IMG/VR virus record: IMGVR_UViG_2671180778_000006
Length of the DNA: 8,160 nucleotides
Strand: one strand, 5' to 3'
From: a virus
Taxonomy: Duplodnaviria; Heunggongvirae; Uroviricota; Caudoviricetes
Part shown: piece by piece, positions 132-8,160 of the stretch
Layout: every line of letters begins with the position of its first letter
Numbering within the stretch: the first letter of the stretch is position 1
Notes under the pieces: generated by a model
Told to the model about the DNA's origin: nothing
The model's input: the letters and a program-made list of their open reading frames with translations, nothing else
The model's database searches: none
Translations under genes and position numbers: made by a program

Positions 132-344
132 ATGGCAATTGTCGATAAAAAGGGTCTGGAGTACATTCCTAATATCGATCGTATGATCCGTGAGAAAGAA
201 TGTCGGGAGCTAACCACTCTTGCGAACAGCACACGCTGGAAGCTGGAGAAGGAAGGAAAATTTCCTAAGCGGATCAAGATTGGTTCCACTGCTGTTGCAT
301 ATCGTCTTTCAGAAGTGCAGGCATGGATTAGGGGAGAGTGGTAA
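132..344 (+). CDS. alpA: AlpA-family (prophage CP4-57 regulatory protein-like) HTH transcriptional regulator
   Basis: The C-terminal 55 residues (MIREKECRELTTLANSTRWKLEKEGKFPKRIKIGSTAVAYRLSEVQAWI) fit the AlpA/Phage_AlpA helix-turn-helix pattern. Start is ambiguous: ATG at 132 has no clear Shine-Dalgarno; the ORF track extends to a GTG at 33. Confidence 0.8.
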   Translation: MAIVDKKGLEYIPNIDRMIREKECRELTTLANSTRWKLEKEGKFPKRIKIGSTAVAYRLSEVQAWIRGEW

Positions 345-395: not shown

Positions 396-1745
396 TCACT
401 TAAATTCAAATACGTGCGTAGTTGATGAGATTATATAATTAGGTGGTAAGTATTGAACTATTTCTCCATCTTCTTCAAAAATATGAATAACTCTTGGGAA
501 TAATTCAGGGCGTATAGGATTTAATGCCTTCGGATTATGAAACATGTATATTGCTGTACACCATGGTTCTTGATATGAAGGTGCATTGACAAGAGCAGTA
601 AAAGGCATTGGGGTACAGCCTTCATCAGTTTTAATACCTCTAACGATGGATTTGACATTTTTTTGTTCAATCCCTGCCACTACTCCCATCCTATCAAATT
701 TTGGGATGGTGGCATGTGTCGCAAGTAATATGGCTGAGACATTCTCATTTTTATTAGAGCCGAAAAAATTAGATTGTATACTTCGATTTTCAAATAAATG
801 TTGTTCAATTTTACTTCCAGAATCCATATCTACACCATACAGATAGCTTTGTAGTGCTGGCATTGATATACTCATCGAAAATCTGCGTGAGTAATCGTGT
901 AAAGCAATAATGAAAGGCTTTCCTTTTGTATGATCTAGTTCCCAATAGCATAATTTTAAGGGTTCAGGTTTATGCCTAACTTTCTTTAATAGAGTGCGGG
1001 CAAATTTGAATGGCATTTGTTCTTTTACATATCTCTGAAGATCTTCTACTGCCTCATGATCAAGTATCAATTTCTCGGTAGGTTCCTCTTGTTCTGCAAC
1101 TGTGGCAGCTTCTACAGCAATATCAATGCCATTTTTTGAGATAATATAATCAGGTTGAGCATAATCTCTGCATATTACGAAATCCATTTCGTAGAAAACT
1201 GCGTTTAGATAAAGTTCGAATAAGCGAGAGTTAAATGAAGCACTCTGGAAATCTCTGATGAATATTCCATCAGGATCTTTACACCAATAAGCTAACTCTT
1301 GCATAACAATAAATGCAGGATAGTGTTTGGGTTCCTCAAGTAGCATTCTTAGATAAACGTTTTTTTTATGTTCTGGAACTTTGGCTAGGAATATTGAAAA
1401 TGCCGACTCTGATTCGTCACCCTGTATAAAACAACCGTTCTTGTGTAGTGATAATAGCTCTGGTATGGCTTTTTCCATATCAGTAATTAAATCATCTTTA
1501 GATTCACGGGATACAATTACTTTAATCGCTCTAAATTTTTTATCTAAATCCCTACCTAGAAATATAGCGTTGTAATCATTATCTATTTTACAAAAAACAA
1601 TTGTTGCTAAGATCGTGACATCATCCTTTATAAATTTGAACCAACAGATTTCCTCCGAAAAGGTTTTTACGTATGGTGTACGACCATAGAAAAATACATC
1701 AAATTGTTCTTTACTGATTTCTAGCATTTTGTGACTTGTTGTCAT
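396..1745 (-). CDS. Hypothetical 449-aa protein, family not recognised; candidate effector of a cargo (possibly anti-phage) operon
   Basis: Uninterrupted 1350-nt ORF with ATG start and an upstream AAGGA Shine-Dalgarno at 7-nt spacing. It starts 23 nt downstream of the RHH gene on the same strand. Composition is markedly AT-rich compared with the roughly balanced flanking genes. By eye there is no Walker A, HEPN Rx4-6H, HNH or transmembrane signature. Confidence 0.85.
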   Translation of the reverse strand: MTTSHKMLEISKEQFDVFFYGRTPYVKTFSEEICWFKFIKDDVTILATIVFCKIDNDYNAIFLGRDLDKKFRAIKVIVSRESKDDLITDMEKAIPELLSLHKNGCFIQGDESESAFSIFLAKVPEHKKNVYLRMLLEEPKHYPAFIVMQELAYWCKDPDGIFIRDFQSASFNSRLFELYLNAVFYEMDFVICRDYAQPDYIISKNGIDIAVEAATVAEQEEPTEKLILDHEAVEDLQRYVKEQMPFKFARTLLKKVRHKPEPLKLCYWELDHTKGKPFIIALHDYSRRFSMSISMPALQSYLYGVDMDSGSKIEQHLFENRSIQSNFFGSNKNENVSAILLATHATIPKFDRMGVVAGIEQKNVKSIVRGIKTDEGCTPMPFTALVNAPSYQEPWCTAIYMFHNPKALNPIRPELFPRVIHIFEEDGEIVQYLPPNYIISSTTHVFEFK

Positions 1746-1768: not shown

Positions 1769-1963
1769 TCAGCCTTTAGGTGTTATTCCTTGTTTTATTA
1801 GTTCGGCACGAGCCAGTTCTTTTAGCCAGTTACCTAAGCTCATCCCTTCTTTGGCAGCGACATTAACCATTTGTTCTTTTAATTCTGGGTTAATACGGAC
1901 TTGGAATGCTGGTGCTTTACCTGCACCTTTCGGTTGTTTATCACGTTGAATGATAGTTGACAT
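1769..1963 (-). CDS. Ribbon-helix-helix (Arc/MetJ/CopG-like) DNA-binding protein, probable operon regulator
   Basis: 64 aa. FQVRINPELKEQMVNVAAKEGMSLGNWLKELARAEL matches the beta-strand plus two-helix RHH pattern (compare Arc and Mnt repressors). ATG at 1961-1963 on the minus strand with AGGU about 9 nt upstream in the mRNA. First gene of the leftward operon. Confidence 0.7.
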   Translation of the reverse strand: MSTIIQRDKQPKGAGKAPAFQVRINPELKEQMVNVAAKEGMSLGNWLKELARAELIKQGITPKG

Positions 1964-2005
1964 GTGTGTACCTATTGCTTAGTATGATTCTTGATAGGTA
2001 CACAC
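1964..2005 (-). promoter_or_regulatory. Perfect 12-bp inverted repeat (GTGTGTACCTAT, 18-nt spacer, ATAGGTACACAC): candidate operator or RBS-sequestering leader hairpin
   Basis: Left arm 1964-1975 and right arm 1994-2005 are exact reverse complements. The repeat abuts the RHH start codon and contains its Shine-Dalgarno in the transcribed leader. Confidence 0.5.
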
Positions 2006-5973: not shown

Positions 5974-5997
5974 GCCGGAAAAAATAAATTTTCCGGC
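5974..5997 (-). terminator. Hairpin with a 7-nt U-run on the minus strand (intrinsic terminator oriented leftward)
   Basis: Stem GCCGGAAAA (5974-5982) pairs with TTTTCCGGC (5989-5997), 6-nt loop. An A7 run at 5967-5973 on the plus strand gives a U7 tail in the minus-strand RNA. There is no U-tract on the plus-strand side. Confidence 0.4.
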
Positions 5998-6107
5998 ATG
6001 CTACATAAATCCCGACCAAAGGGAGTGAAGATATTAACACTAATTGTCCGCACTGAAGTTGTCACCCCAAAACTTTATACAACATTGCACTCGGTTGCAT
6101 GTGTTCG

Positions 6108-6136
6108 CATGACAAATATCGGTGATAGCATATATC
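6108..6136 (+). promoter_or_regulatory. Putative sigma70 promoter upstream of the capsid gene
   Basis: -35 ATGACA (6108-6113), 17-nt spacer, -10 TATATC (6131-6136), about 35 nt upstream of the capsid ATG. Weak, by eye only. Confidence 0.25.
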
Positions 6137-6171
6137 CACAATTATTTTTAATGAATGCAAAGAGGATGCGT

Positions 6172-7212
6172 ATGGTTGATTTATATTCGCCTACCCAGCT
6201 TGTACAGGTGGTTAATGCTGTAGATGTACAAAAACAACTAAATGCGTTGTTTACCAGTTTGTTTTTTACTCGCTCGGTAATGTTTGGATCGCGCGATATT
6301 ATTCTTGATACAATCGACGATCCAAATATCCCAATTGCAGCGTTTTGTTCTCCTATGGTGGGTAGTAAAGTTTCACGTGACGAAGGGTACGAATCAAAAA
6401 CAATTCGTCCAGGCTATATGAAGCCGAAAAGCAGCATTGATCCAAATAAGTTAGCTGTGCGCCCTGCTGGTGTATCACCTGAGCAATACAATGCTTTTGG
6501 GGCGCGTAATATTAAAGTTAAACAGGCGATTGTAAATCAAGCTAAAGCTATTCGTGCACGTATTGAATGGCTTGCCGTTCAGGCAATCACAACGGGGAAA
6601 AATATCATTGAGGGCGATGGTATTGAACGTTATGAGCTGGACTGGAATATTAAACCACAAAATATCATCACTCAGTCTGGCGGTACTGAGTGGTCAGGTA
6701 AGGATAAAGAAACTTTTGATCCAAATGATGATATTGAGAGCTACGCAGAATTTAGTGAGGGCGTCACTAATATCATCATTATGGGCGGTAATGTATGGAA
6801 GAAATACCGTTCATTCAGAGCGATAAAAGAGGCTCTGGATACCCGTCGTGGTTCTAATTCCGAACTGGAAACGGCCCTTAAAGACCTTGGTGATTCGGTG
6901 AGTTTTAAAGGATATATGGGCGATGTTGCGATTGTTGTTTACAGCGGGCGTTATACCGACGAGGACGGAACTGAAAAACATTTCCTTGATCCTGATTTGA
7001 TGGTGCTTGGCAATACGGCTCTTCAGGGGATTGTCGCCTATGGCGGTATTCAGGATCCGGAGCTAATCCGAATGGGGCTGACTAAAGCCGAACTTGCACC
7101 GAAAAACTATATTGTGCCTGGTGATCCGGCTATTGAATATGTGCAGACACATTCAGCACCACAGCCAATACCGGCCCGCATCAATCGTTTTGTTACCGTT
7201 CGCATTGGCTAA
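6172..7212 (+). CDS. Major capsid protein, phage lambda gpE-like
   Basis: Near-full-length similarity to lambda gpE as recalled from memory, including ITQSGGTEWS, DTRRGSNSELETA, GDVAIVVYSG and MVLGNT blocks and a matching N-terminus (MVDLYSPTQL against lambda MSMYTTAQLL). Start placed at ATG 6172 with GAGG at 6-nt spacing; the ORF track's upstream extension to 5959 is not supported. Confidence 0.9.
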   Translation: MVDLYSPTQLVQVVNAVDVQKQLNALFTSLFFTRSVMFGSRDIILDTIDDPNIPIAAFCSPMVGSKVSRDEGYESKTIRPGYMKPKSSIDPNKLAVRPAGVSPEQYNAFGARNIKVKQAIVNQAKAIRARIEWLAVQAITTGKNIIEGDGIERYELDWNIKPQNIITQSGGTEWSGKDKETFDPNDDIESYAEFSEGVTNIIIMGGNVWKKYRSFRAIKEALDTRRGSNSELETALKDLGDSVSFKGYMGDVAIVVYSGRYTDEDGTEKHFLDPDLMVLGNTALQGIVAYGGIQDPELIRMGLTKAELAPKNYIVPGDPAIEYVQTHSAPQPIPARINRFVTVRIG

Positions 7213-7221
7213 GGGGGAGCA

Positions 7222-7563
7222 ATGGCTACTCATTACACTGAACTCATGGCTGGCACTGAAGCACTGGTGACTACGCTGGGGATATTTTCAGCTAATAAAG
7301 GGGTAATTCCTGCATTTACGCCACTGATGCAGGAAGATGCAACAGGTGCACTGGTGGTATGGGATGGTTCGAGCGTAGGTAAAGCGGTTTATGTTTCCGC
7401 TGTACAAATCGACACCGCGAAAAAAACACAGGCTCAGGTCTATAAGACAGGTGTCTTAAATGTTGATGCTCTGAACTGGCCTGAGTCTGTAAAAGAACTG
7501 TCAGTAAAGATTGCAGCGTTTGTTGGCTCAGGTATTTCTGTTCAGCCGCTGGCTCGTGTGTAA
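7222..7563 (+). CDS. Head decoration protein, phage lambda gpD-like
   Basis: 113 aa. AFTPLMQEDATGALVVWDGS ... VYKTGVLNVDALNWPE ... AAFVGSGISV aligns with recalled lambda gpD ([20 protein letters not shown] ... FYKSGTFRYEDVLWPE ... TAFAGTAISIV). GGGGGAG Shine-Dalgarno upstream. Confidence 0.8.
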   Translation: MATHYTELMAGTEALVTTLGIFSANKGVIPAFTPLMQEDATGALVVWDGSSVGKAVYVSAVQIDTAKKTQAQVYKTGVLNVDALNWPESVKELSVKIAAFVGSGISVQPLARV

Positions 7564-7574
7564 AGGGGGATACA

Positions 7575-7958
7575 ATGCAAAATGATTACAATGACCTTAA
7601 GCCAATTGCCGAAATGATGTACCCGAATCCAGCTGTAGAGGAATTAAAAGCTATCGCTGACAAAATGTGTTTAAGCGAGCGCCTTGTTGATATGAATCAG
7701 GTGATGGAAATTACAACCCTGAGTCGGCGTACACTGCTAAACCTTGAGGCTAGTGGAGAGTTCCCGGAGCGTGTGCAGGTTACGGAAGGGCGTAAGGCCT
7801 GGTATTTAAGTGAAGTGATCGACTGGATAAATAATATTCCTCGCGCTTCTGAATATTGCCGCGTACCTGTCCCAAAAAAGCCAGATGCGGCGCTATGCCT
7901 CAAGATTGAGCGTGTACGCCGCAATGCACGGGATGGTCGCTATAAGCTGATTGGTTGA
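7575..7958 (+). CDS. AlpA-like HTH domain protein (127 aa); regulator or candidate packaging-specificity factor
   Basis: Residues about 40-95 (MNQVMEITTLSRRTLLNLEASGEFPERVQVTEGRKAWYLSEVIDWI) fit the AlpA-type HTH pattern, with extra N- and C-terminal extensions. AGGGGG Shine-Dalgarno upstream. Sits immediately 5' of the cos site. Confidence 0.6.
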   Translation: MQNDYNDLKPIAEMMYPNPAVEELKAIADKMCLSERLVDMNQVMEITTLSRRTLLNLEASGEFPERVQVTEGRKAWYLSEVIDWINNIPRASEYCRVPVPKKPDAALCLKIERVRRNARDGRYKLIG

Positions 7959-7965
7959 TGAAATT

Positions 7966-8160
7966 AGGGCCCGCTCTGGCTGGCGGGTCCTTTCCGGCGA
8001 TCTGACAGGCTACGGGGCGTCAGGCGCGCGGATTTTCGCTATTTATGAAAATTTTCCGGTTTAAGGCGTTTCCGTTCTTCTTCGTCGTAACTTAATGTTT
8101 TTATTTAAAATACCCCCTGAAAAGAAAGGAAACGACAGGTGCTGAAAGCGAGCTTTTTGG
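7966..8160 (+). other. Lambda-type cos site (cosQ-side flank, cosN at about 8015-8026, cosB R3/I1/R2 region) running off the window end
   Basis: 8027-8160 is nearly identical to my recollection of the lambda left end (CGCGGGTTTTCGCTATTTATGAAAATTTTCCGGTTTAAGGCGTTTCCGTTCTTCTTCGTCATAACTTAATG...GAAAGGAAACGACAGGTGCTGAAAGCGAG). 7971-8014 resembles the lambda right end (...GGGTCCTTTCCGGTGATCCGACAGGTTACG). The 12 nt at the cosN position read GGGCGTCAGGCG against lambda GGGCGGCGACCT. Confidence 0.8.

What the first reader, a model, noticed from the sequence alone, without database searches (positions are those of the whole stretch)
7575..7958. AlpA-like HTH protein with extensions encoded immediately upstream of cos
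This is a second AlpA-type HTH in the island, longer than the regulator at 132-344 and positioned directly 5' of the cos site. In E. coli PICIs a small protein is known to redirect helper terminase to the island's cos; I do not know its sequence and cannot confirm equivalence. Position and DNA-binding fold make this gene a candidate packaging-specificity factor, or alternatively a late regulator.
Basis: inference. Interest (0 to 1): 0.45.

Follow-up and report, generated by a model that had tools for sequence, protein, structure and literature searches.

The report
Second AlpA-type regulator in satellite capsid operon
The gene is real, but it is probably not the factor that steers DNA packaging: it is the last gene of a phage satellite's own capsid operon and most likely a DNA-binding switch for that operon.

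Summary
Window 7575-7958 (+) encodes a 127-aa protein with an AlpA-type winged helix-turn-helix at residues 36-85. It has family-specific N- and C-terminal extensions and ends 27 nt before cosQ and 57 nt before cosN.

The packaging reading is not supported:
- The known E. coli redirecting protein, Rpp, lies downstream of cos in the Nu1 slot.
- Rpp has no sequence similarity to this protein.
- Some elements carry both proteins.
- The DNA right of cosN (cosB plus TerS, Rpp or nothing) is a swappable cassette, while this protein stays nearly unchanged.

What stays constant is the triad capsid E-like, decoration D-like and this gene, in all 215 related loci examined. These have different integrases, replication modules and insertion sites.

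Upstream of the triad lies a promoter with four direct TTGCAY units at an exact 10-bp period (6075-6110) and an extended -10. The array is unique in each element and absent from the helper prophage. It is also absent from EcCICFT073-type islands, which lack this gene.

Best reading, inferred and untested: a late-operon autoregulator or activator that works like PrtN on its P-box or Vis in P4. It is a new variant of a known kind, of moderate interest.

The parts
7575..7958 (+). ORF of 127 aa (stop included): AlpA-family winged-HTH protein with family-specific N-terminal (1-35) and C-terminal (89-127) extensions; here called HTH2
7680..7829 (+). Coding region of the AlpA wHTH core (residues 36-85); putative recognition helix TTLSRRTLLNLE
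7564..7569 (+). Shine-Dalgarno AGGGGG of HTH2, directly after the D-like stop (7561-7563). The tight spacing indicates co-transcription with E and D.
   Evidence: sequence
6172..7212 (+). Satellite major capsid protein, lambda E family (346 aa from the ATG at 6172); first gene of the operon
   Evidence: Pfam Phage_cap_E E 4e-41; annotation in L001; always 1403 nt upstream of HTH2
7222..7563 (+). Satellite head decoration protein, lambda D family (113 aa); second gene of the operon
   Evidence: Pfam HDPD E 4e-15; always 353 nt upstream of HTH2
6075..6110 (+). Array of four direct units at an exact 10-bp period (TTATAC, TTGCAC, TTGCAT, TCGCAT). Proposed operator of the E-D-HTH2 operon.
6122..6130 (+). 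Extended -10-like element TGATAGCAT, 8 nt after the last 10-bp unit of the array (18 nt in other genera). No recognisable -35. Predicted start of transcription near 6137.
   Evidence: sequence; conserved TGnTAnnAT in 10 of the 14 representative loci scanned, 8 of them exactly 18 nt after the array. The consensus scan did not call a sigma-70 promoter here.
5974..5997 (.). G+C-rich hairpin. The scan called it terminator-like on the minus strand only. Read on the plus strand it has no T-run and is preceded by an A-run. I take it, by inference, as the end of the replication operon (after ssb) and so the boundary of the late operon.
7966..7991 (+). Hairpin after the HTH2 stop; its 3' arm contains cosQ. 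Not more stable than shuffled sequence. EcCICFT073 has what reads as a canonical terminator (G+C hairpin followed by a T-run) at the same place.
   Evidence: (z -0.92)
7985..7991 (+). cosQ GGGTCCT
   Evidence: alignment with the lambda right end. The position of cosQ in lambda is from my own knowledge.
8015..8026 (+). cosN, 12-nt cohesive-end equivalent GGGCGTCAGGCG (lambda and the helper have GGGCGGCGACCT)
8027..8160 (+). Lambda-type cosB (R3 8067-8079, R2 8122-8134), nearly identical to lambda and to the helper. It continues beyond the window into a Nu1-type small terminase gene.
132..344 (+). Integrase-proximal AlpA (AlpA1), the paralogue with a different recognition helix (TTLANSTRWKLE)

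Best explanation
HTH2 is a transcription factor of the AlpA/Xis winged-helix family. It is encoded as the last cistron of the satellite's own capsid operon (E-like, D-like, HTH2).

Proposed mechanism, all inferred:
- Several HTH2 molecules bind head-to-tail to the four 10-bp-phased TTGCAY units upstream of the E gene (6075-6110).
- One unit always sits near -40.5 relative to an extended -10 that lacks a -35.
- From there HTH2 activates transcription of the operon that encodes it. This gives a self-reinforcing late switch.
- The switch would be primed by read-through from the replication operon or, in the helper-embedded state, by helper late transcription.

The family-specific C-terminal helix and N-terminal helices would serve oligomerisation or contact with RNA polymerase.

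The gene's position next to cos follows from the lambda-like genome layout, in which the late operon ends at cos. It does not indicate a role in packaging.

Shown: the gene, its fold family, the operon synteny, the array with its phasing and uniqueness, and the co-occurrence of array and gene.

Inferred: that HTH2 binds the array, and that the effect is activation rather than repression.

For: 2. Synteny. E at -1403 and D at -353 lie directly upstream in every locus that has upstream sequence, including relatives 46-72% identical with other integrases, other replication modules (D5_N primase or DUF927) and other attachment sites. Intergenic gaps are 9-11 nt.

3. The array.
- Three consecutive units score 17 of 18. 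0 of 300 shuffles of the window reached that score.
- Hits at 15 of 18 or better are expected 0.027 times per shuffled window.
- There is one site per element, and none in about 67 kb of helper prophage and flanking chromosome.

4. Footprint. The units and the TGnTAnnAT element are kept across Escherichia, Salmonella, Kosakonia, Kluyvera, Superficieibacter and Cedecea while the flanks diverge. The spacing from array to -10 is exactly 18 nt in eight divergent representatives. It is 8 nt in the window lineage, so it differs by one helical turn.

5. Co-occurrence. 204 of 215 HTH2 loci have the array. Of the other 11, nine have the HTH2 match close to a contig or locus start (the coordinates put at least seven of them too close for the promoter to be present) and two carry a variant array. 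None of 80 EcCICFT073-type loci, which have homologous E and D but c1502 in place of HTH2, has it upstream of E.

6. The array tracks HTH2 and not the integration module. The HE-PICI attP motif TGTATTGCA x2 is present in L001, L002, L006, L018 and L021. It is absent in L003, L004, L013, L015, L019 and L020. Of these six, all but L015 keep the TTGCAY array and L015 has the variant array. No AlpA1 homologue is detected in L003-L005, L013, L019 and L020, and L015 carries a 54%-identical one.

7. One covariation. L015 and L016 have units TTGGG/TTGTG together with an R-to-Q change in the recognition helix.

8. Precedents.
- PrtN activates pyocin genes through a P-box of four 10-11-nt direct repeats ATTGnn(n)GTnn(n), 60-100 bp upstream of the SD (PMC4905994). 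Here the array lies 50-86 bp upstream of the SD, or 60-96 bp in other genera.
- Lambda Xis forms a filament on phased direct repeats (my own knowledge).
- P4 Vis, an AlpA homologue, regulates P4 late promoters, and P4 delta is encoded in the late operon it activates (my own knowledge).
- EcCICFT073 AlpA is an activator (PMC6092414).
Against: - No binding or expression data exist.
- Array and gene are only 1.5 kb apart in one module, so their co-occurrence could be linkage rather than function, and the loci are not phylogenetically independent.
- The TTGCA core resembles the HE-PICI attP arm motif TGTATTGCA (PMC10111431). The integrase arm domain or AlpA1 could therefore bind the array in those elements.
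- A host or helper factor could be the binder.
- The covariation rests on a single lineage. L021 (R-to-G) and L215 (R-to-G at the neighbouring position) keep mostly TTGCA-like units.
- The sign of regulation is unknown. In the window lineage the last unit lies in the spacer (-33 to -28), which could equally repress.
- The consensus scan did not call a promoter here.
- The structure model is only moderate (pLDDT 68).
Confidence: 0.5

Rival explanations
1. Packaging factor. HTH2 binds the satellite cos region or the helper small or large terminase, and biases cos recognition or cleavage towards the satellite. This would be a functional analogue of Rpp.
For: - The gene always lies immediately 5' of cosQ-cosN: 97 of 100 distinct downstream sequences by a strict pattern.
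- The satellite cosN overhang differs from that of the helper, so some satellite-specific step in cos handling is conceivable.
- The conserved C-terminal helix has no assigned partner.
Against: - Rpp lies in the Nu1 slot downstream of cos, has a different architecture and gives no alignment to HTH2.
- Rpp homologues co-occur with HTH2 in L204/L205 (70% to RppA) and L208/L213 (33%).
- HTH2 is 95-100% identical across elements with lambda-type cosB plus Nu1, lambda-type cosB with no TerS, and GGTGGTGG-type cosB plus a different Nu1. It is therefore not coupled to the specificity determinant cosB.
- The only DNA shared by all of them near cos is cosQ and the left half of cosN, which the helper also has, so it offers no discrimination.
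- There are no TTGCAY-like or other conserved repeats between the stop codon and cosN.
- Synonymous divergence does not dip at the 3' end of the gene (pS 0.75-0.81), so no embedded cis element is indicated.
- The fold is closer to excisionases and AlpA than to TerS.
Confidence: 0.12
2. Recombination directionality factor. HTH2 acts as an excisionase, either for the satellite late in the cycle or for the helper prophage as a stand-in, as shown for AlpA_1 of EcCIMP1.
For: - The closest solved structures are excisionases: 8c3t GIsul2 Xis and RdfS.
- PHROG 2790 is annotated 'excisionase and transcriptional regulator', E 1e-49.
- A PICI with two AlpA paralogues, one of which supports helper excision, is documented (PMC11773190).
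- The TTGCA core resembles the HE-PICI attP arm motif.
Against: - HTH2 travels with E and D, not with any integrase. It is found with at least four integrase types and attachment sites: prophage E gene, fis, a Salmonella chromosomal site and others.
- There is no similarity to the helper's Xis, E 1.8.
- The phased array is not at the element ends. It lies in front of the capsid operon.
- The attP motif has a 12-bp period and is absent from many HTH2 elements.
- Most elements have another RDF candidate near the integrase: AlpA1, or HTH_17 in L004, L005 and L013.
Confidence: 0.08
3. A regulator with another logic or target. HTH2 could be a repressor or timer of the late operon (negative autoregulation). 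It could be a processive antiterminator loaded at P_E, like Pseudomonas AlpA. Or it could regulate helper or host genes not sampled here.
For: - The same DNA-binding evidence applies as for the best explanation.
- In the window lineage the promoter-proximal unit overlaps the spacer.
- An extended -10 can work without an activator (my own knowledge).
- A hairpin or terminator follows the operon just before cosQ, and a TerS gene lies beyond it. An antiterminator could read through this.
- AlpA of P. aeruginosa is an antiterminator (my own knowledge).
Against: - Conserved helical phasing with a unit at about -40.5 and the absence of a -35 are typical of activation.
- No array was found in about 67 kb of helper prophage and flanks.
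- The TerS gene downstream is often absent.
- The hairpin is no more stable than chance.
Confidence: 0.2

Closest known systems
AlpA / Vis family (Pfam PF05930): CP4-57 AlpA, P4 Vis, EcCICFT073 AlpA, GIsul2 excisionase (PDB 8c3t)
   Different: - About 35 extra N-terminal and 40 extra C-terminal residues. In a search of 1.84 billion representatives these occur only in this narrow enterobacterial satellite clade.
- Encoded as the third gene of the capsid operon next to cos, not next to the integrase.
- The recognition helix differs from that of AlpA1.
- Pick et al. state that typical E. coli PICIs encode only one AlpA (PMC11773190).
PrtN and the P-box of Pseudomonas pyocin genes
   Same: A small wHTH activator of the Xis/AlpA-like fold; PrtN models are among the viral fold matches. 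Its target is four direct 10-11-nt repeats beginning ATTG, 60-100 bp upstream of the SD of a phage-derived structural operon (PMC4905994). Here there are four 10-nt units (A/G)TTGCAY lying 50-96 bp upstream of the SD.
   Different: There is no Pfam match to the PrtN family, even at E<=10. The unit sequence differs after ATTG. PrtN is controlled by an SOS-cleavable repressor and is encoded apart from its targets. HTH2 is encoded inside the operon it is proposed to control. Binding is untested.
Rpp (RppA/B/C) of EcCICFT073-type PICIs
   Different: - There is no sequence similarity.
- Rpp has its wHTH at residues 1-64 and a C-terminal coiled-coil dimeriser.
- Rpp lies downstream of cos in the Nu1 slot.
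- The slot of HTH2 is taken in EcCICFT073 by an unrelated acidic 137-aa protein.
- Rpp homologues and HTH2 co-occur in some elements.
P4 late control (Vis; delta within the sid-delta-psu operon)
   Same: A satellite-encoded regulator controls a satellite capsid-related late operon, and the activator gene lies inside the operon it controls. The operon is adjacent to cos. (My own knowledge of P4.)
   Different: Delta is a zinc-finger Ogr-type protein that binds a dyad at about -55 and also turns on helper late genes. Here no helper sites were found, and the protein is of the AlpA type.
AlpA_1 of EcCIMP1 (second AlpA of a PICI)
   Same: A second AlpA-family gene at the far end of an E. coli PICI (PMC11773190).
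   Different: AlpA_1 is on the opposite strand, resembles the helper's Xis/TorI and aids helper excision. HTH2 is co-oriented in the capsid operon and is unlike the helper's Xis.

Membership tests
AlpA family (Pfam PF05930) | Match to the family HMM above the curated cut-off | tested here: met
   35.8 bits against a cut-off of 21, residues 36-85 covering profile positions 2-51 of 51
AlpA family (Pfam PF05930) | Winged helix-turn-helix fold of the Xis/MerR class | tested here: met
AlpA family (Pfam PF05930) | Usual context: single-domain protein of 60-80 aa next to an integrase | tested here: not met
   127 aa with extensions. About 7 kb from the integrase, in the capsid operon. This feature is typical of the family, not obligatory.
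Rpp (redirecting phage packaging) | Sequence homology to RppA/B/C | tested here: not met
   No BLASTP alignment to RppA. RppC (6hlk) was not returned at E<=1.
Rpp (redirecting phage packaging) | Architecture: N-terminal wHTH (1-64) plus C-terminal coiled-coil dimerisation domain, 144-153 aa | tested here: not met
   The wHTH is central (36-88) with a 35-aa N-extension. There is a single short C-terminal helix, 105-119.
Rpp (redirecting phage packaging) | Gene located downstream of cos, in the position of the small terminase gene | tested here: not met
   RppA lies at L017 2660-3094, after cosN at about 2560-2572. HTH2 lies upstream of cosQ.
Rpp (redirecting phage packaging) | Binds the helper TerS and the satellite cosB, and blocks the helper | not testable with these tools
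   Needs two-hybrid, EMSA and plaque assays. Indirect evidence against: HTH2 is invariant across cosB types and co-occurs with Rpp homologues.
Small terminase, lambda Nu1 family (PF07471) | Match to the family HMM; N-terminal DNA-binding domain plus oligomerisation and TerL-binding domains | tested here: not met
   No Pfam hit even at E<=10. BLASTP to lambda Nu1 gives E 0.12 over the wHTH only. A true Nu1 gene lies just beyond the window in the closest genome.
PrtN-type activators (P-box) | Membership of the PrtN protein family | tested here: not met
   No Pfam match. There is only fold-level resemblance.
PrtN-type activators (P-box) | Target made of four 10-11-nt direct repeats 60-100 bp upstream of the SD of the regulated operon | tested here: met
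   A candidate target with this layout exists at 6075-6110, 50-86 bp upstream of the SD at 6161-6166 (60-96 bp in other genera). Binding itself was not tested.
Helper-embedded PICI (HE-PICI, Tommasini et al.) | [quoted passage not shown] | tested here: met
   In NZ_CP062853 the element splits the prophage major capsid gene (pseudogene halves at L001 3414-3659 and 14705-15493). The motif lies at L001 3787 and 14606. The window itself lacks both ends.

The most novel reading that the evidence does not exclude
HTH2 is a two-function late switch. It would bind the P-box-like array to fire the satellite's own capsid operon. Through its clade-specific C-terminal helix it would also engage the helper terminase or the cosQ/cosN-left region. 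That would couple production of satellite capsid protein to satellite-biased cos cleavage, giving an Rpp-independent layer of packaging control. This could explain how relatives with helper-type cosB and no TerS or Rpp gene still compete for packaging.
Probability: 0.07. Interest if true: 0.7.

Novelty: new variant of a known kind. Interest (0 to 1): 0.4.

Why it matters
Gram-negative PICIs are described as having one AlpA master regulator and, in the best-studied case, Rpp for packaging. What the satellite-encoded lambda E- and D-type capsid genes do, and how they are controlled, is not known. In EcCICFT073 both were deleted individually to test for a role in helper interference, and PICI capsid genes are reported as not required for helper-assisted transfer (PMC6092414; PMC10111431).

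A dedicated regulator with a defined operator inside a portable 'promoter-E-D-regulator' module would make this question testable. It gives a handle for switching satellite capsid genes on or off. It suggests that late expression in these satellites is self-contained and not driven only by AlpA1 or by the helper.

The analysis also corrects a tempting mis-annotation: proximity to cos does not make a protein a packaging factor. It shows that everything right of cosN (cosB, TerS, Rpp) is a swappable cassette in this satellite family.

Tried and rejected
- Rpp equivalence: rejected.
- Homology to the EcCICFT073 gene in the same slot (c1502-like, 137 aa): none. That protein is acidic and not an HTH.
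- Similarity to the helper's Xis: none.
- Origin from true phages: tblastn against 50,697 phage records found no full-length relative. There were only AlpA-core matches at 40% identity or less.
- Sites in the helper: no phased TTGCAY array in L001, L012 or L220 (about 67 kb), nor in 49 kb of CFT073.
- Sigma-54 reading of TTGCAC-N4-TTGCAT: rejected on the sequence. There is no GG, and the period is 10 rather than 11.
- Replication iterons: unlikely. The array lies after ssb and a hairpin that I take as the end of the replication operon, and it stays with the E-D-HTH2 module.
- Hairpin after the stop codon as a significant structure: not better than shuffles (z -0.92).
- Rfam: no family at gathering threshold anywhere in the window.
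- NCBIfam: no hit.
- Broadening the family for a covariation test. Genome, IMG/VR and metagenome scans gave 215 loci but few independent recognition-helix variants, so the covariation remains anecdotal.
- My first repeat search used the wrong spacing (N5) and missed the array. One script timed out and one failed on a file name.

Full report
**1. The observation**

Window 7575-7958 (+) is an ATG-initiated ORF of 127 codons. It has an AGGGGG ribosome-binding site and starts 11 nt after the stop of the preceding gene.

- Pfam places residues 36-85 in Phage_AlpA: 35.8 bits against a cut-off of 21.
- The best solved relative by sequence is an AlpA-family excisionase, 8c3t, E 2e-9.
- The protein is a paralogue of the island's integrase-proximal AlpA at 132-344: 36% identity, E 3e-11.
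- Aligning the 3' end of the window with the lambda termini shows cosQ (GGGTCCT, 7985-7991) and the cosN overhang equivalent (GGGCGTCAGGCG, 8015-8026; lambda has GGGCGGCGACCT). From 8027 onward there is a cosB almost identical to lambda's, including R3 and R2.
- Full-length homologues of 112-129 aa occur in Escherichia, Salmonella, Enterobacter, Citrobacter, Klebsiella, Pluralibacter, Trabulsiella, Kosakonia, Kluyvera, Superficieibacter, Cedecea, Buttiauxella and Scandinavium.
- Synonymous sites are saturated (pS about 0.8). Non-synonymous change is 0.04 in the core, 0.31 in the N-extension and 0.22 in the C-extension.

The gene is real and both extensions are constrained.

**2. Where the window comes from**

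The 7200-8160 stretch is 99.9% identical to E. coli NZ_CP062853. There the element lies inside a lambdoid prophage and splits its major capsid gene.

The element reads: int, alpA, accessory genes, DUF4222, primase, ssb, its own E-like capsid gene, its own D-like decoration gene, this HTH gene, cos, a Nu1-type small terminase, and a DUF2971 gene. The second half of the prophage capsid gene follows.

This is the helper-embedded PICI described by Tommasini, Mageeney and Williams (11capE type; bioRxiv 10.1101/2022.07.18.500453 and PMC10111431). Neither version of that paper, nor the PICI papers I read, discusses a second AlpA-type gene in the late zone. Pick et al. state that typical E. coli PICIs encode only one AlpA (PMC11773190).

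**3. Is it the packaging-redirection protein?**

- Rpp is 144-153 aa, with an N-terminal wHTH (1-64) and a C-terminal coiled-coil dimeriser.
- In CFT073 the 144-aa RppA gene lies downstream of cosN, in the Nu1 position. The slot between the D-like gene and cos holds an unrelated acidic 137-aa protein.
- HTH2 gives no alignment to RppA or to that 137-aa protein. A PDB sequence search did not return RppC.
- Among viral models the neighbours are AlpA, Xis and PrtN proteins, not terminases.

**4. What is constant and what varies**

I collected 215 loci that encode a relative.

*Constant.* In every locus with upstream sequence the E-like gene starts about 1403 nt and the D-like gene about 353 nt before HTH2. 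This holds for relatives only 46-56% identical that sit in satellites with other integrases, other attachment sites (prophage E gene, fis, a Salmonella chromosomal site) and another replication module (DUF927).

*Variable.* Downstream, cosQ-cosN is almost always present, but what follows differs. Among 100 distinct downstream sequences:

| Downstream of cosN | Count |
|---|---|
| GGTGGTGG-type cosB with a different Nu1-family gene | 54 |
| Lambda-type cosB with no terminase gene | 14 |
| Lambda-type cosB with a lambda-like Nu1 (the window's type) | 9 |
| A tail-I-like gene | 13 |
| Nothing recognisable (other cosB types) | 7 |
| An Rpp homologue | 3 |

The Rpp homologues are 70% identical to RppA in L204/L205 and 33% in L208/L213.

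HTH2 is 95-100% identical across the first three configurations. So HTH2 is tied to the capsid genes and not to the specificity-determining side of cos, and it co-exists with Rpp. The only cos DNA common to all elements is cosQ and the left part of cosN, which the helper shares. There are no conserved repeats between the stop codon and cosN. Synonymous divergence does not drop at the 3' end of the gene. The packaging reading therefore loses most of its support, though protein-protein contacts with terminase cannot be excluded here.

**5. A candidate target**

Between ssb and the E-like gene there is a hairpin (5974-5997). The scan scored it as terminator-like only on the minus strand; I take it, by inference, as the end of the replication operon. 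It is followed by four direct units at an exact 10-bp period: TTATAC, TTGCAC, TTGCAT and TCGCAT (6075-6110). After 8 more nt comes TGATAGCAT, an extended -10 without a -35. The E start codon is at 6172.

- *Significance.* A three-unit window scores 17 of 18. Scores of 15 or more are expected 0.027 times per shuffled window, and 17 was never reached in 300 shuffles.
- *Uniqueness.* The array occurs once per element. It is absent from about 67 kb of helper prophage and flanks, and from 49 kb of CFT073.
- *Conservation.* Across genera the units and the TGnTAnnAT element are conserved while the flanks diverge.
- *Spacing.* In eight divergent representatives the spacing from the array to the TG is exactly 18 nt. 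In the window's E. coli lineage it is 8 nt. The difference is one helical turn, so a unit is always centred near -40.5.
- *Co-occurrence.* 204 of 215 HTH2 loci have the array. Of the 11 without, nine have the HTH2 match close to a contig or locus start (the coordinates put at least seven of them too close for the promoter to be present). Two carry the L015-type variant (TTGGG/TTGTG units), whose HTH2 has an R-to-Q change in the recognition helix. None of 80 EcCICFT073-type loci has the array upstream of E. These have homologous E and D genes but c1502 in place of HTH2.

**6. Who binds the array?**

The TTGCA core recalls the HE-PICI attP arm motif TGTATTGCA x2 (PMC10111431). I found that motif at both ends of the element in L001.

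That motif has a 12-bp period. It is present only in elements with the HE-type integrase (L001, L002, L006, L018, L021). The array persists in elements without the motif and without an AlpA1 homologue (L003, L004, L013, L019, L020). HTH2 is thus the only AlpA/Xis-type protein shared by all array-bearing elements.

Proteins of this fold bind phased direct repeats head-to-tail; the lambda Xis filament is the example from my own knowledge. A close functional precedent is PrtN, a small wHTH activator. Its P-box is four 10-11-nt direct repeats ATTGnn(n)GTnn(n), 60-100 bp upstream of the SD of pyocin operons (PMC4905994). Here the four units (A/G)TTGCAY lie 50-96 bp upstream of the SD.

In P4, the AlpA homologue Vis regulates late promoters, and delta is encoded in the late operon it activates (my own knowledge). 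EcCICFT073 AlpA is an activator (PMC6092414).

I therefore propose that HTH2 binds this array and activates, or at least autoregulates, the E-D-HTH2 operon. This step is inference. The linkage of gene and array within one 1.9-kb module means that co-occurrence is not independent evidence, and the covariation rests on one lineage.

**7. Other readings**

- *Excisionase role.* This is suggested by the nearest structures and by PHROG 2790, and by the EcCIMP1 precedent. However, HTH2 does not travel with any integrase and is unlike the helper's Xis.
- *Repressor or antiterminator.* These cannot be excluded from sequence. In the window lineage the last unit lies in the promoter spacer, and a hairpin followed in some elements by a TerS gene lies downstream. 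That hairpin is no more stable than chance, and the TerS gene is often absent.

**8. Verdict**

The 'late regulator' alternative is the better reading and now has a concrete, testable operator. The 'packaging-specificity factor' reading is not supported.

The protein is an AlpA-family member with clade-specific extensions, which a search of 1.84 billion representatives found only in this clade. It sits in an undescribed place and probable role, so I rate it a new variant of a known kind. Interest is moderate. It would matter mainly as the handle on the unexplained satellite E and D capsid genes.

Noticed in passing
window 396-1745 (-), with the 64-aa ORF at 1769-1963 (-): The 449-aa reverse-strand ORF has no Pfam hit. 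It matches the anti-phage defence protein PD-T7-1 over its full length (PADLOC E 1.3e-153). The satellite therefore carries a defence gene in its accessory zone. A 64-aa gene with a weak HicB/RHH-like match, below the Pfam cut-off, sits next to it. The same 449 aa + 64 aa pair is present in the Buttiauxella element (L002 2939-4504).
   Followed up: partly
L001 13005-13556 (just beyond the window's 3' end): The satellite's small terminase is a chimera. Its first ~100 residues (DNA-binding domain and linker) are identical to the helper's and almost identical to lambda Nu1. Its last ~80 residues (oligomerisation and TerL-binding part) are only about 45% identical (73% overall). A TerS that reads the same cosB as the helper but has a different C-terminal domain could itself act in interference or redirection.
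   Followed up: partly
window 8015-8026: The satellite's 12-nt cohesive end (GGGCGTCAGGCG) differs from that of lambda and of the resident helper (GGGCGGCGACCT) at 6 of 12 positions. The sequence right of it is helper-like. Relatives have yet other overhangs: GGGCGGAAGGCG, GGGCGGCAGCGT and GGGATGTATACC. The window's element looks like a recombinant, with a satellite-type left side of cos joined to a lambda-type cosB.
   Followed up: partly
downstream of cosN in 100 distinct relatives (e.g. L071, L067, L159, L069, L208): Everything to the right of cosN behaves as a swappable cassette. The combinations seen are two cosB types with matching Nu1-family genes, helper-type cosB with no terminase gene, a tail-I-like gene, or Rpp homologues. 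The E-D-HTH2 side stays fixed.
   Followed up: yes
L017 2084-2497 (EcCICFT073): In EcCICFT073 the slot between the D-like gene and cos holds an unrelated acidic 137-aa protein with no Pfam hit. What reads as a canonical terminator (G+C hairpin followed by a T-run) abuts cosQ. 75 of 80 CFT073-type loci carry this gene. Its function is not described in the papers I read. Its size and charge recall lambda gpFI, but this was not tested.
   Followed up: no
window 6131-6139: ATATCCACA, an 8-of-9 match to the DnaA box TTATCCACA (consensus from my own knowledge), lies directly downstream of the proposed -10 of the capsid operon promoter. It is seen only in the E. coli lineages.
   Followed up: no
L001 3787-3807 and 14606-14626; L002, L006, L018, L021: The doubled attP arm motif of HE-PICIs (TGTATTGCA, 12-bp period) is present at both ends of the element. 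It shares the core TTGCA with the promoter array but has a different period. It is absent from non-HE relatives.
   Followed up: yes
L001 13663-14421 (-): The DUF2971 gene at the right end of the element (outside the window) matches the candidate defence family PDC-S31 (PADLOC E 7e-26). Other relatives carry an Abi_C gene at that place (L006 11779-12540).
   Followed up: no
window 1964-2005 and 2140-2206: The divergent region between the RHH-like gene and the rightward early genes holds a perfect 12-nt inverted repeat (GTGTGTACCTAT / ATAGGTACACAC) and a 21-nt direct repeat 46 nt apart. These are candidate operators of the early switch.
   Followed up: no
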